Source: an uncultured Verrucomicrobiae bacterium (GTDB lineage: Bacteria; Verrucomicrobiota; Verrucomicrobiia; Chthoniobacterales; UBA10450). Taken from it: DNA of 64,000 nucleotides. This document shows, one piece after another, positions 36,001 through 45,000 of the stretch (the stretch's first letter is position 1; every line of letters begins with the position of its first letter). The position numbers are program-made. The stretch is from positions 682,001 to 746,000 of the forward strand of contig OY970345.1 of assembly GCA_963717545.1 (NCBI GenBank), read 5' to 3'.

Positions 36001-39000
36001 GGAGACCCAAACTAATGCAGATGTTTTCCAGCAGCCGAAAAGTAGAACCCGCCGCCCCAATGGCCGCGACGCCCCCACCCGCCCCGACCCCGGCGAAACC
36101 CGAGCCAGCTCCCAACGGTGCCACCGAGGTGAGCAGAGGCGGCGGCACTTTATCGAGCGGGGTCTCCATCAAAGGTACCGTCCGCTTCCAAAAGGAGCTG
36201 ACCCTGGACTGCGAAGTTGAGGGCAGGATCGATTCACAAGGCCGGCTCACCGTTGGCAAGCAGGCGAAAATCAAAGGCGACATCAAGACGCGTTCCGTCA
36301 TCGTCGACGGCACCGTGAACGGCAACATCACCGCGGGTGAGCGTTGCGAATTGCGCGCCGGTTGCACCGTGAACGGCGACATCGAAGCGCCGCGTCTGGT
36401 GGTGGACGAAGCCGCCAGCTTCGTCGGCAGCGCCAAGATCGCTACCCAGAAGCAGCCGCCGGCAGCCGCTTAGTTTCCTGGCGCCCTCAGCCTCGGCGTC
36501 AGCTTTCCCGTTCTGAATTGTAGGGCAGGCGCGTCGCCTGCCGTTCTTCGGCGGCAAGCGGAGCGCTTGCCCTACAAAGCGGTCGCGTCGGACGCGCGGT
36601 GCTCAACCCTTCGGCGTTAAAGTTCTAATTCCGAATTGTAGGGCAGGCGCGTCGCCTGCCATTGTTCGCCGGCAAGCGGAGCGCTTGCCCTACAAAATTA
36701 GATTGTTGGATTCGTAGCGATACGGCCATTCCTCCCACCGGCTTACCAGACCAGCGCGCACCGGGTTTTCTTCTACGTAAAGCCACTTCTCCTGAAGCGA
36801 TTCCCCCGAACGAAGGAGACGATCAAAGGAACCACGCTGCCACTTCCAGGAAGCACCGAGATCTTGGCGCATCCAGCGCTTTATTGCCGCTGAAAAGTTC
36901 CCCAGTTTCCCTTCGCGATCCTCCTTCGGGGCTACGATCACGTGAAGATGATCCGGCATCAAGACAGCCGCGAGAATCGTCCAATCACGCAGTGTTGCGG
37001 TGGCTTTCTTAAATGCGAGGAAGGCGTTTTGATTCGCGAGCACTGGTCTGCGGCCCTCAACACAGATCGTAACAAAATAAATTACGGATTGGTCGCAACG
37101 TAGCCAAACAGGAATCCTGGGAGGATGACCCATGCTGGCTCGATTGTAGGGCAAGCGCTCCGCTTGCCGAGAGCGAAAGCGGCCACGTGCCGGCAAGCGG
37201 AGCGCTTGCCCTACAAATTCCGAAGCGGATCGCAGTCACGCCGAACATCCGGCGTCGACTCTCCAATTCCGAATTGTAGGGCAGGCGCGTCGCCTGCCGT
37301 TCTTCGGCGGCAAGCGGAGCGCTTGCCCTACAAAACCGAAAGCGGGTCGCGGCTCAGTTCCGAATTGCCGGGTCCAACTTCACGTTTCCTGGCGGTCGTT
37401 CGCACCGAACGTCGGACGCGCGACGCTCAACCCTTCGGCGTCAAAGTTCTAATTCCGAATTGTAGGGCAACCGCATCGGTTGCCAGGTTTTTCGATTTCG
37501 GCAAGCGGAGCGCTTGCCCTACAATTCGGAAGCGGGTTGCAGCTCAGTTCCGAGCTGGCGGGTTAGGCTTCACGTTTCCTTGCGGGTCGTAGCGGTTCTC
37601 GCTCACGATCTTGCCGACAGCGTCGTAGGTCCGGACGAGACGGTGAGCACCTTCGACTTCTACTGCTTCTCCCTGCGTGCCAAACCAGGCGCGCTCGATG
37701 CGATTGCCGCGGTCGTCGTATTTGTCGACCCGTTTGAAGTAGCCACCGGCGCGCAGGACGGGGACGCCGTCTATGCCAAAGAAAGCCGCTTCGACCTGAT
37801 TGCCGCGCTCGTCATATTTCGCGGTCCATTTGGCATAACCGTCCTTCAACAGGATGGGGCTAGCGTCGATACCAAAGAAGGCGGCTTCGACCTTGCGCCC
37901 CTGCGCATCGTAAATTGTGTTGAGCTGAGCGTAGCCTTCTCCGTTCAGAATCGGATTTCCATCGGCTCCGAAACAACGCTCCTCGGTCAGGTTGTCCCGG
38001 TCGTCGTAAACACCGGTTTGGCGAGCGTACCCTTGGCGAGTGACGACAGGTTCGCCTTTCACCCCGAAGTAAGAGGCTTCGATTTTCCGGCCGCGCGAAT
38101 CGAACTTGATCTCCTGTTTTGCCCATCCGTCTTTCGCGAGAACAGGACCCGCGGTCCCGAAACACGCTTCCTCGATTTGGTTGCCCACTTCATCAAATTT
38201 CGCGGTTAAGGTTGATACCCCTTCGGAATTTGGACGCGGTGTGCCGTCCACGTCGAAATACATCTGGGTAATGAGGTTGCCGCGTTCGTCATACCAACCC
38301 ATCCATTTTGCGTAGCCGTCTTTGCGCAGAACCGGTTGTCCCTTGCGATCGAAAGTCGCGCTTTCGGAGCGATAACCGCGCTCGTTGAATTTCGCGGTCC
38401 ACCGGGCAAAGCCCTGCTCGTTATCGGCCAACTGGCCATCGGGTCCGAACGTCGAAATTTCGATTTGGTGCGCGGCCACATCGTAATGGGTCACCCGTCC
38501 CGAATACCCAAACCTGGTCGTAATCGGTTGATCGTCGACTCCCAGAAAAGCCTCAACGATCAGATTGTCACGCTCGTCGTAGGCCCCTTTCCATTTCGCG
38601 TAACCATCGCGACGCAACATCGGCTTGCCGTCGAGGCCAAACGTCGCGCTCTCGACGCGGTTGCCGCGCGCGTCGAAGACCGCGGTCCATCTCGCATAGC
38701 CTTCTTTCCCGATAATTGGTTCTCCGTTGGCGCCGAAAGTTGCGACTTCAATTTCGTGACTCCGCTCGTCGTACTTCGCTGTCCGCTTCGCGTAACCCGC
38801 GACAGCGAAAACCGGCTCATCGAAAACGCCAAAATAACCCCACTCGATCTGGTTCCCTCGGCCGTCGAACCGCGCCCGGAGCTTCGCAAAGCCATCTTTG
38901 GTTAGAGTCGGTTGACCGTCGATTCCGTGGTAGGCGCGCTCGATCTGGTTGCCGTGATCGTCATGCCTCGCGGTCCAGCCGGCGGTCCCACTCTTGTTCA

Positions 39001-42000: not shown

Positions 42001-45000
42001 GCGTAGTTTTCGAGCCGCCGGTACAAACGCCGGCTGAGGTCGGCGTCCTTGGACGAATAGGAAAGAAACGCCCAGTAGAAGGAGCTGGGGTTTCCAGCGG
42101 GTTCGTCTGGTTTCATGCTCACCGCGTGACGCGGTTTGTATTGCAATGAACCAAACTCGGCGAGAAATCTTTTGGTCCAGTTCGTCGCCACCAATCATGA
42201 ACAAACTCATTTGCGTCCTTGTCACCTTCGTCGCGTTCTTGTTTCAGGCCGCGAATCGCAGCGAAGCGGCGGAACTCGGCGCTGCCGAAGCAGTCCTGGA
42301 GAAAGCCGGGATGTTCGCGCTTGGGGGCATTGGCGTAGCCGGCACGATGTCGCCGGGCGAACGAGCTCTGCGCGAGATCCTGGAGAATCCGAATGCGATC
42401 TCCCGCATGGAACGTCTGCTGACAAACGCCACCCCCGCCGGACGGCTTTACGCGCTGCTCGGTTTGCGACTCAAAGACCGCGCTTTATACAGTCGCGTCA
42501 TTCAGGAACTGCGACCCGTCGACGAAAAAATTGAGACAGCCCGGGGCTGCATGCTCAGCCAGGAATCGTTCGGCGATCTGGTGAAGGAAATTGAGCGCGG
42601 GCAATACGACACTTTCCTCGACCGAAAGTGGCCGAAGGGAATGTGAAGAGTGACTGGTGATCAGTGAATGGAGAAGGCCCTAGCCATTCACCAGTCACTG
42701 ATCACTATTCACGACGACGCCGAACCTTCCCGCATCCGCACCGGTGATGCGGGCAACTTGTCCAAGACGATTTTCCGGCCGGTTCCGTAACGCCCAAACG
42801 AGAGGACTCCGGTCGGGCATTCCTGCACGCAGGCGGAACAACGGACGCATTCCGGATCTTTCATCGGCAGCCCTTTGTTCGCGAAGTTCATGACGTCGAT
42901 GCCCTGATGGCAAACGGAAGTGCAGACGTTGCACGAAATGCACTTGGATTTCTCCGGGAAGATTCGGAAGCGGGAGAAGCGACTGTAGATGTGCATCAGC
43001 GCGGCGAGCGGACAGGCGAAGCGGCACCAAACCCGCCCGCTGAAATGCCAGTAGAATCCAACGCCAATGATCCCCGCCCAGAGCAGATCGACGAACCAGA
43101 CGTAATTGAACACGGGCATCTGTTTGAAAACGTATTCGAACGCCGAGCCGAAAATGGAACCGGGCATTGCCCACGCGAGACTTCGGGTGAGCAGGAGGAA
43201 GAAAGCCATCGCCAGAAAAACCTGACCGAGCATGTTGAAACGATTCCATCCCGGACCGTGCGGCATCTTCGTGCGGTGTGCGTCACCGAGGGTTTCCGCG
43301 AGCGCGCCGCAGGAGCAAATCCATCCGCAGTAGGCGCCCTTCCCCCAGCGAAAAATGATCAGCGGAATGAGGACAAACGTTTGGAGGAACGAGATGATTA
43401 GCCAGGTCCACATCGGCTGATCGGTAAACACGTTCCAGAAAAATAGCGGCCACGCGAGAATGAGCCCGAACGCGCGCCAATACTCACGGCCGTGTCCGTA
43501 GTTCGCGATGGGGAAAAGCGCGTCCGCGACCGTTTTGCCGATACCGCTGTCGAACCAGCCGTTGTGCCCTGCCCACGGCAGCACGATGTAGGGCAGTAGA
43601 AAGAGCGGCACTACCTGGATCGCCATCAGAGTGAAGGTCTGCGCCTTGATGTAGGGCGTCTTCTTGCGACGAATCCGGCGAAGGCCGAACAGGGTGACGC
43701 AAAGCGTGTAGGCGAGCGAATAGTAAAAACCGGGCTCACCGGTCGTGACGCCCAGAGTTCCCAGGATGTTTCCTCGATTCGAAAAAGCTGGCCCGAGGGC
43801 CGCCCACAAATCCGGCACGTTGAATGGGAACCAGTGATTGCGTTCGAACAACTCGGAGATGCCGAGGTAAACCCGGCCTTTTTTCCAATGGTAAATGAAG
43901 ATGCACGCCAGGATGATCAGGGCCAGGCTAATGACCTTTGGCGGTCGCCAATCGCCGCGCACCTCGAGTCCGGAGCGGCGAAAAAATTCGAGCGGCGCTT
44001 CGCGGCCGAGCATGGTGAAGACGACATCGTTCGGCAACCGGGCCTCGTCCCCGTTTTTGAGAAATGCGGCGGCGGACTCGATCCGCGTCACCTCTGTTCC
44101 GAGCGCGAGCTTCAACGAACCGGGGACGCGTCCGCGCATTCCCGAAGTCGTGGCGGTCGTGACTCGCTCGGAAGTCGGCCTCTCGACCTGAACATCGGCG
44201 GTCGCGTCGCGGACCAGCATCTCCACTTTCGCAATGTTCGCCGGCTTCGCCCGGGACAACTCTTTCCGGCGATAGCTGAGAGTGACGTGCGCTCCGGAAG
44301 TGGCCAGCGCTATCGCCGTCTCCAAGGCCGAATCGCCGCCGCCCACCACGAGCGCATTCTGTCCCGCGAATTCCTTCGGATCGAAGAGCCGATTGTAGAC
44401 CTTGTCCAGTTCTTCCCCCGGCACGCCGAGCTTCCGAAAATTTCCACTCCGCCCGATCGCCACGATTACGTTTCGCGCCGCTACCGTCGTCTTATCGCCG
44501 AGGTGGAGGACGAGCCGGCCCCGACCGCGCGATTCGATTCGCTCGACCCGCGCCGGCGTTACCTCGATTGCCGCCACGCGCCGCTGCGCTTCCATTTCTT
44601 CCACGAGCGCTTCCTTCACATCGGCAGAAAACTGGAGCCCGCCCTCGAGCTTCATCTCTGTCGGGTAAGTGTAAATCGGCTTCGCCTTCGGGAAATTGAC
44701 GACTGTCGAAAAGACCTCGGTCGCTTCGTAGATCGCGAACTTCAGCCCCGCCTTCTTCGCCTCAATCGCCGCCGAAACTCCCGCAACCCCAGCCCCGATG
44801 ATCGCCAGATCGAGCGCTCCGCTTTCATCCTTCTTCCTTCTTCCTTCTTCCTTCAGAATCCCCCTCACCGCTTCCGCGCCGGTGTGCGACGAGAACTTCA
44901 GGAGCGGGATCCCCGTGAGATCGCCTACGATCCACACGCCCGGCAGCGTGGTGGTTCCGTCCGGTCCAGAGACGGGCAATTTCTCGACAGTCCCAGCCGG

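What a model noticed while it worked through the whole genome (the two positions that open the first line are those of the whole stretch)
37544..42191. Undescribed 32-aa repeat ectodomain shared by Toll-like (TIR-TM), receptor-kinase and STAND-TM receptors
A 32-residue repeat with no Pfam or NCBIfam family forms the region after the single membrane helix of three different signalling proteins here: TIR-TM (g763, continued by g762), Ser/Thr kinase-TM (g2259) and nSTAND1-TM (g3493). It likely is a dedicated extracytoplasmic sensing solenoid that bacteria plug onto TIR, kinase and NTPase heads, as plants and animals use LRRs. It would be a new receptor ectodomain family of thousands of members.
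Evidence so far: Spacing 32 aa or multiples; 18, 16, 20 and 3 units by a home-made HMM; blastp links the proteins. 5,353 clusters at 50% identity hit at E 0.001. Of the best 150, the N-terminal part is a Ser/Thr kinase in 54, TIR in 35, nSTAND1 in 23, and 136 have a TM helix before the repeats; of 12 unassigned ones scanned, 6 are nSTAND1 and 2 AAA_35, several end in PDZ. No family over cut-off for g763 or g3493 repeats.
(Added by a program. Inside this text positions count along the whole contig: contig position 682,001 is position 1 of the stretch shown here. "Call 12" and the like, gene names such as g00115 and contig names such as C1 are that model's own, and its searches are not shown. 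The text may have been shortened before it was handed on; [...] marks where a part breaks off. The agent that wrote the report below was given it as the finding of a first reader that could run no searches.)

Follow-up and report, generated by a model that had tools for sequence, protein, structure and literature searches.

The report
Bacterial receptors with YD-like repeat ectodomain
A soil bacterium has a gene for a TIR domain, one predicted membrane helix and about 34 repeats of 32 residues that are distant kin of Rhs/teneurin YD hairpins; many bacteria join the same repeat module to TIR, kinase or STAND heads, so it is likely an outside-facing sensor that would switch on the head, though no ligand is known.

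Summary
The repeat is real: lag-32 identity 0.39 and 0.33 against at most 0.12 in shuffles. g763 and g762 are one gene split by one extra base; related contigs lack it and a same-genus genome has the intact 1,538-aa ortholog. Layout: TIR, basic patch, helix, 220-aa cap, about 34 repeats. The cap-plus-repeat module sits behind TIR (99 of 150 best hits), kinase (30), nSTAND1 (12) and rarer heads, swapped repeatedly. It is not unrelated to known families: model, fold searches and a profile search all point to Rhs/teneurin YD shells, yet the Rhs protease core and toxin are missing. A 2021 supplementary table already lists nSTAND1+TM+RHS+PDZ proteins, likely this family, without discussion. Orthologous repeats are conserved, not hypervariable. 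Best reading: a type II single-pass receptor whose curved YD-like sheet binds a conserved outside ligand and clusters an NAD-cleaving or signalling head (0.55). This scan noted the family before on other genomes (at least four notes). New variant of a known kind; interest 0.6.

The parts
37544..42116 (-). One gene (g763+g762), about 1,523 aa if read through: TIR-helix-cap-about 34 repeats
   Evidence: ATG at 42116; intact syntenic ortholog of 1,538 aa in G644 with colinear units
41544..42080 (-). TIR domain of a TIR-helix clade (FRDRDELP, SRWVNEE); the Glu at the position recalled as catalytic in TIR NADases is invariant
   Evidence: TIR_2 38 bits, ThsB_TIR 22.7 bits; Glu in 68 of 68 rows
41505..41531 (-). 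Basic patch before the helix (positive-inside signal, inferred)
   Evidence: 7 K/R in the 15 residues before the helix, 3 after
41448..41501 (-). Predicted single membrane helix
   Evidence: KD 1.66, no charged residue
40791..41447 (-). About 220-aa all-beta cap next to the membrane, with decayed hairpin units; shared by all head types
   Evidence: 903 clusters at E<=0.001; model pLDDT mostly over 90
39159..40790 (-). Repeat units 1-17 (32 aa: two strands and a glycine/proline loop)
39156..39157 (.). One extra base that makes the stop and shifts the frame; likely an assembly error
   Evidence: 4 of 4 related contigs that bridge the site lack one base here; other frameshifts in this assembly
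37544..39155 (-). Repeat units 18 to about 34 (g762); ends without Rhs core or toxin tail

Best explanation
This is likely a type II single-pass receptor: the TIR domain is predicted to lie in the cytoplasm and the cap and 32-residue repeats in the periplasm, where they are predicted to form a curved YD-type beta-sheet that likely binds a conserved outside ligand and would cluster the TIR domains to switch on NAD+ cleavage. Shown: domain order, repeat, one-gene structure, sharing of the module among heads, kinship to YD shells in predicted fold and profile. Inferred: topology, ligand binding, activation by clustering (from how TIR NADases, Ser/Thr kinases and STAND ATPases are known to be switched on; recalled), and a stress or counter-invader output. 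In the STAND version the receptor has no enzyme head of its own and likely recruits the SIR2-TIR protein encoded directly upstream. The ligand is more likely a slowly changing polymer or protein surface (envelope damage product, a conserved invader part or a neighbour's surface protein) than a fast-changing antigen.
For: Topology: helix with KD>=1.2 just before the cap in 136 of 146 proteins, more K/R before than after in 134 of 146; C-terminal LolA in 2 and PDZ-like tails in 14 of 153; head-less forms with an N-terminal signal-like or anchor stretch, judged by eye (L083, L084, L086, L090, L094, L096). Modularity: heads TIR 99, kinase 30, nSTAND1 12, GmrSD_N 1, PNP_UDP_1 1, alpha/beta-hydrolase-like 1, none or unscanned 6 of 150; 19 head changes on the cap tree of 144 rows where 6 is the minimum, starred branches force at least 9, 4 and 4 for TIR, kinase and STAND. 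The same TIR-helix clade carries other outer parts: only 3 of 80 loci have this repeat. Heads look active: TIR Glu 68 of 68, kinase and Walker motifs intact in the paralogs. Conflict context: SIR2_2-TIR gene upstream in 20 of 20 STAND loci, touching the start codon in 15; L001 lies among DUF4231, patatin, TIR and TrkA_N-RyR genes; the window site is empty in 17 of 30 genus loci and filled in 2. Surface: units keep their own identity between orthologs (0.59 against 0.42 for other units); positions 7 and 10 vary between units but are kept between orthologs in both the TIR and the STAND set.
Against: No ligand, no expression data, no assay. No sign of an arms race: among 10 STAND orthologs pN is 0.11-0.23 in the outer part against pS 0.63-0.81. 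The window gene has no defence neighbours and no PADLOC match, and no match in 72,556 plasmids, 50,697 phages or the viral contigs. 10 of 146 proteins have a weak or no helix. 79 of 149 have more than 60 residues after the last detected unit, some with PDZ or LolA, which fits a stalk. Best-matching unit is the same-index unit in only 15 of 26. Topology rests on hydropathy and charge, not on a dedicated predictor or experiment. The copy in this genome may be a dead gene.
Confidence: 0.55

Rival explanations
1. The repeats are a rigid spacer or scaffold that spans the periplasm; sensing is done by the cap or by a terminal domain (PDZ, LolA-like, others), or the array reports mechanical strain of the envelope.
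For: Unit number varies from a few to 40, median 15, and 14-24 among STAND orthologs; PDZ-like tails in 14 and LolA in 2 of 153; cap better conserved than repeats (0.74 against 0.64 in STAND orthologs, 0.64 against 0.56 in the TIR pair).
Against: 70 of 149 proteins, the window protein among them, end within 60 residues of the last unit; units keep their own residues between orthologs, which a plain spacer would not need.
Confidence: 0.2
2. A teneurin-like contact or adhesion receptor: the ectodomain binds itself or a conserved partner on a neighbouring cell and signals for community behaviour, not defence.
For: Same topology and hairpin kinship as teneurins (PMC13018210 passages); purifying selection; STAND version kept in about half of the genus; housekeeping neighbours in the window.
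Against: Heads are mostly NAD- or nucleotide-attacking or conflict-type domains (TIR, SIR2-TIR partner, PNP, GmrSD_N); island context in L001 and L002. An inner-membrane protein of a two-membrane cell would not reach the surface (inference).
Confidence: 0.13
3. The helix is not a membrane span; the protein is a cytoplasmic sensor-effector with a YD-like sensor, like TIR-TPR or STAND-WD40 proteins.
Against: Positive-inside bias in 134 of 146, LolA and PDZ tails, signal-bearing head-less forms.
Confidence: 0.07
4. A degenerate Rhs toxin container that is exported and carries a toxin.
For: Top fold matches are all Rhs/Tc/teneurin shells.
Against: No PxxxxDPxG or double DPxG core in the window protein; 5 scattered, unlike matches in 153 proteins, whereas 3 of 4 of the genome's own Rhs frames match; no toxin tail or immunity gene; strict 32-aa period where Rhs spacing is irregular.
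Confidence: 0.05

Closest known systems
RHS/YD-repeat shells (Rhs effectors, Tc toxin TcB-TcC, bacterial teneurin-like proteins)
   Same: YDxxG hairpin (Y 65%, D 91%, G 89% of 986 units); best structural matches among 48,161 chains (8qjb Z 11.7, rmsd 11.1, 252 aligned; 6sue Z 10.9, rmsd 5.0, 209 aligned); best PDB match of the family profile is a teneurin-like protein, E 1e-6.
   Different: Fixed 32-aa period with a long G-x-P...G loop; no protease core or toxin; membrane-anchored with a cytoplasmic head; TM-score at most 0.37 to any shell.
Animal teneurins
   Same: Type II single-pass receptor with YD hairpins outside (PMC13018210 passages; Z 7-9).
   Different: No EGF, FN-plug, NHL, ABD or Tox-GHH parts found; catalytic or switch heads instead of a small intracellular tail; most likely an independent fusion (inference).
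nSTAND1-centred counter-invader systems (Kaur et al. 2021, PMC8195603)
   Same: Main text describes nSTAND1/TIR/kinase heads with swappable C-terminal sensors (section 7); Figure 2 source data list nSTAND1+TM+RHS+RHS+PDZ (WP_129958652.1), TIR+nSTAND1+RHS+RHS (WP_048709317.1) and nSTAND1+TM+Ntox24+PDZ named 'YD repeat-containing' (WP_015724204.1), each behind a TIR gene.
   Different: The main text never mentions RHS or YD; the repeat, the cap and the direct TIR-helix and kinase-helix forms are not described there. I did not check by sequence that those three rows are this family.
Toll-like receptors and plant LRR receptor kinases
   Same: One helix between a repeat ectodomain and a TIR or kinase head; one ectodomain type on several heads.
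   Different: Reverse orientation (head at the N-terminus), beta-meander instead of LRR, TIR with the NADase-type Glu. Analogy only; properties of TLRs recalled.
Beta-meander add-on domain of GtfA/GtfB, SdgB, TarM (Pfam 38 GtfB_M, PF27244)
   Same: PF27244 is precomputed on 25 of 120 listed relatives (name); weak fold match, Z 4.9-5.7 over about 100 residues.
   Different: Short single sheet on a glycosyltransferase; match is in the range of common arrangements.

Membership tests
RHS/YD-repeat proteins | YDxxG hairpin repeats forming an antiparallel meander | tested here: met
   Consensus of 986 units; two strands per unit in the model, pLDDT 94.6, pTM 0.88
RHS/YD-repeat proteins | Scores over the RHS_repeat / YD_repeat_2x cut-offs | tested here: inconclusive
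   Window protein below cut-off; 13 of 31 relatives over the whole-protein cut-off but no single stretch at E 0.001; L001 28.5 and L002 31.5 bits
RHS/YD-repeat proteins | RHS core with PxxxxDPxG / double DPxG autoprotease | tested here: not met
   None in the window protein; 5 unlike, scattered matches in 153 proteins; present in 3 of 4 of the genome's own Rhs frames; definition from PMC13018210 section 7
RHS/YD-repeat proteins | C-terminal toxin with adjacent immunity gene | tested here: not met
   Frame ends just after the last hairpin; next genes are a Y1 transposase and bactofilin; Ntox24 finds nothing in the genome
RHS/YD-repeat proteins | Closed hollow shell | not testable with these tools
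   Only cap plus 6 units were modelled with an alignment and no coordinates are returned; matches to shells and barrels suggest curvature only
Teneurins | Type II single-pass topology with YD hairpins outside | tested here: met
   Predicted from hydropathy and charge and fold matches
Teneurins | EGF, FN-plug, NHL, ABD, Tox-GHH domains | tested here: not met
   No such Pfam match in g763, g762 or the intact ortholog, which repeats fill to the end
Toll-like receptors | N-terminal LRR ectodomain, C-terminal TIR | tested here: not met
   TIR is N-terminal, repeats are beta-hairpins
TIR NADases | Conserved catalytic glutamate | tested here: met
   Glu in the WVNEE motif in 68 of 68 rows; its role is recalled from other TIRs
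TIR NADases | NAD+ hydrolysis on self-association | not testable with these tools
   Needs an assay
Thoeris (ThsA/ThsB) | ThsB-like TIR next to a ThsA effector | tested here: not met
   ThsB_TIR just over cut-off but no effector gene beside it in the window or in G644, and no PADLOC match
MORN repeats | About 23-residue hairpin unit (recalled) | tested here: not met
   Period is 32; MORN-named hits in the viral library have query TM-scores under 0.3

The most novel reading that the evidence does not exclude
Bacteria have a large family of teneurin-shaped, Toll-like receptors: a regularised YD spiral, freed of its toxin, coils in the periplasm into a hollow trap whose inner face (unit positions 7, 10, 31 and neighbours) reads a polypeptide or polymer unit by unit, for example a protein injected by a phage tail or a rival's secretion system, and fires an NAD-destroying TIR, a SIR2-TIR partner or a kinase across the inner membrane before the invader reaches the cytoplasm.
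Probability: 0.15. Interest if true: 0.9.

Novelty: new variant of a known kind. Interest (0 to 1): 0.6.

Why it matters
Almost all tested bacterial immune sensors work in the cytoplasm (recalled). A single ectodomain reused on TIR, kinase and STAND heads in hundreds to thousands of clusters would be a bacterial counterpart of LRR receptor families, and a second, independent case of YD hairpins turned from toxin container into receptor, as in teneurins. A cultured, harmless carrier exists (Vreelandella sedimenti QX-2, L001), so topology, NAD+ cleavage and triggers can be tested directly. The very regular repeat is also a possible scaffold for designed binders.

Tried and rejected
Homodimer prediction of cap plus 5 units: no verdict (score 0.37, mark 0.42); says nothing either way. 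Single-sequence fold of the whole g763 ectodomain was poor (pLDDT 53, pTM 0.43) and was used only as a first look. phmmer of g762 against PDB: nothing. PF27244 is not in the local Pfam copy and not in papers. No RNA holder listed. Region search with the cap found only 3 proteins. Metagenome scan gave 5 TIR-only loci, so neighbour statistics for TIR forms rest on G000, G644 and L001-L003. The divergent MchS3-like gene is not a partner: it stands without the receptor in 28 of 30 genus loci. A SLOG-like upstream gene (GxTGHR motif, label recalled) occurs in L001 and L002 but not in L003, G644 or the window. dN/dS is not quoted because synonymous sites are near saturation. A cysteine comparison was flawed and is not used. 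Ten paper searches listed no paper on this repeat; the library lacks most subscription journals, bioRxiv supplements are closed, and file 13 of the PMC8195603 supplement and the PMC7159879 supplement were not searched.
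Full report
Observation. Two minus-strand frames cover 37544-42194. Cut at the YD-like motif they fall into 32-residue units. A profile of 30 units finds 17 in g763 and 16 in g762. Identity at lag 32 is 0.39 and 0.33, against at most 0.118 in 200 shuffles. The family consensus from 986 units is Y-D-x-R-G-N-x-I-E-x-A-Y-F-G-x-D-G-K-P-V-L-x-x-D-G-Y-A-x-x-x-x-x. 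Pfam finds only TIR in g763 and nothing over cut-off on the repeats; NCBIfam gives YD_repeat_2x at E 0.6-0.8.

One gene. The stop of g763 arises from one extra base at 39156/7. All 4 related contigs that bridge the site (84-94% identical, runs X1 and X4) lack one base there. G644, same genus, has an intact 1,538-aa ortholog between the same neighbours, with colinear units; identity is 82% in TIR, 64% in the cap, 56% in the repeats. The assembly has other frameshifts: the glycoside hydrolase gene ending near 47259, and 3 of 17 loci checked with relatives' proteins. An assembly error is the likelier cause (my odds 3 in 4); the same strain's reads were not available.

Anatomy and topology. From ATG 42116: TIR, a run of basic residues, an uncharged helix (KD 1.66), a cap of about 220 residues, then the units. 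Among 146 proteins with at least 45 residues before the cap (hits plus the three own proteins), 136 have a helix of KD>=1.2 there, and 134 have more K/R before than after it. Two end in LolA and 14 of 153 in a PDZ-like tail. Six of the loci from the phylum search encode head-less forms that begin with a signal-like or anchor stretch (judged by eye). Together these favour head in, repeats out; this is prediction.

Sharing among heads. The genome holds two paralogs: nSTAND1-helix-cap-26 units and kinase-helix-cap-decayed units with a PDZ-like end. A search with the cap finds 903 clusters at 50% identity. Of the best 150, heads are TIR 99, kinase 30, nSTAND1 12, GmrSD_N, PNP_UDP_1 and a hydrolase-like domain one each, 6 without a head call (one of the 15 unassigned was not scanned; the set is biased to relatives of a TIR protein). 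On a tree of 144 caps (9 rows without head or too short left out) heads change 19 times where 6 would do; heads are still clustered (shuffled mean 44.5). The TIR head itself belongs to a large TIR-helix clade with other outer parts: 3 of 80 loci carry this repeat, and 31 of 40 genus genomes have such a TIR. So shuffling runs both ways.

Fold. With 100 aligned rows, cap plus 6 units folds at pLDDT 94.6, pTM 0.88: all-beta, two strands per unit and a bridged loop. Foldseek ranks Rhs, teneurin and Tc shells first (E 6e-14) but with TM-scores of at most 0.37. The unbiased search of 48,161 chains puts nine YD-shell entries on top (Z 11.7-7.8), then beta-barrels; the second look gives TccC3 Z 10.9, rmsd 5.0 over 209 residues. 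These Z values are middling for repeats, but sequence agrees: the family profile's best PDB hit is a teneurin-like protein (E 1e-6), the Atlas's nearest clusters carry RHS_repeat in 52-65% of members (recognition score low, so a lead), 15 of 120 listed relatives carry PF05593 and 25 PF27244, and 13 of 31 scanned pass the RHS_repeat whole-protein cut-off. Against membership in the Rhs toxins: no protease core (3 of 4 own Rhs frames have it), no toxin tail, strict period, and the unit profile barely scores on those Rhs frames (1-5 bits). It is a regularised offshoot of the YD hairpin, likely a curved spiral; whether it closes is open.

Selection. Among 10 STAND orthologs pN is 0.06 in the head and 0.11-0.23 in cap and repeats, pS 0.61-0.81: purifying, no hypervariable strip. 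Positions 7 and 10 differ between units yet stay the same between orthologs in both the TIR pair and the STAND set; 31, 26, 28 and 29 do so in one or both. By hairpin register, and by the recalled layout of YD shells, 1, 7, 10, 12, 29 and 31 would share the concave face; this is inferred without coordinates. It fits a fixed binding surface, or packing between turns.

Context and spread. Matches in 17 of 401 phylum genomes, 36 of 300 family genomes, 24 of 39 genus genomes (tallies include unpublished G652); none in plasmids, phages or viral contigs. The window site is filled in 2 of 30 genus loci, empty in 17, different in 11. All 20 STAND loci examined have an upstream gene for a SIR2_2-like plus TIR protein, touching the receptor's start in 15; most are close kin, so not 20 independent cases. 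L001, from a cultured Vreelandella, lies among DUF4231, patatin, TIR and TrkA_N-RyR genes; L002 among TIR and restriction-like genes; L003, G644 and the window among housekeeping genes.

Mechanism. Most likely an outside ligand binds along the curved sheet and clusters the receptors, which switches on TIR NAD+ cleavage, kinase cross-phosphorylation, or STAND assembly with the SIR2-TIR partner (0.55). Rivals: spacer for a terminal or cap sensor (0.2), contact receptor (0.13), cytoplasmic protein (0.07), toxin container (0.05).

Literature. Ten searches listed no paper on this repeat (listings only). Read: PMC8195603 passages, section 7 and supplement searches; bioRxiv 10.64898/2026.10.19.760177 passages and section 25, which describes type II ParA receptors with other outer domains; PMC10907252, PMC7159879, PMC3482391 and 10.64898/2026.01.04.697583 passages; PMC13018210 passages and section 7. 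The key result against full novelty: the source data of PMC8195603 list three nSTAND1 proteins with RHS- or YD-named C-termini, two with a helix and PDZ. They are likely this family (not checked by sequence) and are not discussed in the text. Supplements I could not see may hold more. This scan's earlier notes describe the TIR, kinase and SIR2/STAND forms on other genomes; they are not independent evidence.

Verdict. Real, widespread and modular; a new variant of the YD/RHS kind used as a receptor ectodomain, function untested. Interest 0.6.

Noticed in passing
window 36468-37585: Y1_Tnp-like gene (36690-37196, minus) flanked by a cluster of palindromic repeats (5 copies of a 27-43 nt unit): looks like a REP-associated transposase with its REPs; absent at this site in G644.
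   Followed up: partly
window 42146-42646 +: MchS3-family gene (NF041432 below cut-off) divergent from the receptor; present in 30 of 40 genus genomes, usually next to bactofilin.
   Followed up: yes
window 45352-47289 +: Glycoside hydrolase (trehalose pathway, by recall) with a frameshift near 47160; the natural-looking C-terminus continues in another frame.
   Followed up: partly
G000:C1:3593346-3599305: SIR2_2 (FAM118B-like)-TIR gene coupled to nSTAND1-helix-repeat gene; pair kept in 20 of 20 loci; STAND repeats alternate in a 64-residue pair with His-rich loops.
   Followed up: yes
L001:2948-13070 (Vreelandella sedimenti): Island with TIR, DUF4231 protein with a GxTGHR start, patatin, TIR-helix-repeat receptor and TrkA_N-RyR membrane protein; a second partial copy on another contig.
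   Followed up: partly
L004-L080, L195-L222: Large TIR-helix clade with many different outer domains (WD40, TPR, CHASE2, PDZ, subtilase by precomputed Pfam); several copies per genome in this genus.
   Followed up: partly
L083, L084, L086, L090, L094, L096: Head-less secreted or anchored proteins made of the same repeat.
   Followed up: partly
G000:C1:2579149-2584053, 488453-493498, 3098076-3101954, 2221135-2222733: Four true Rhs frames with core motifs and short C-terminal domains.
   Followed up: partly
G000:C1:3589083-3590693: Oligopeptide-transporter-like gene split over several frames, another sign of indel errors.
   Followed up: no
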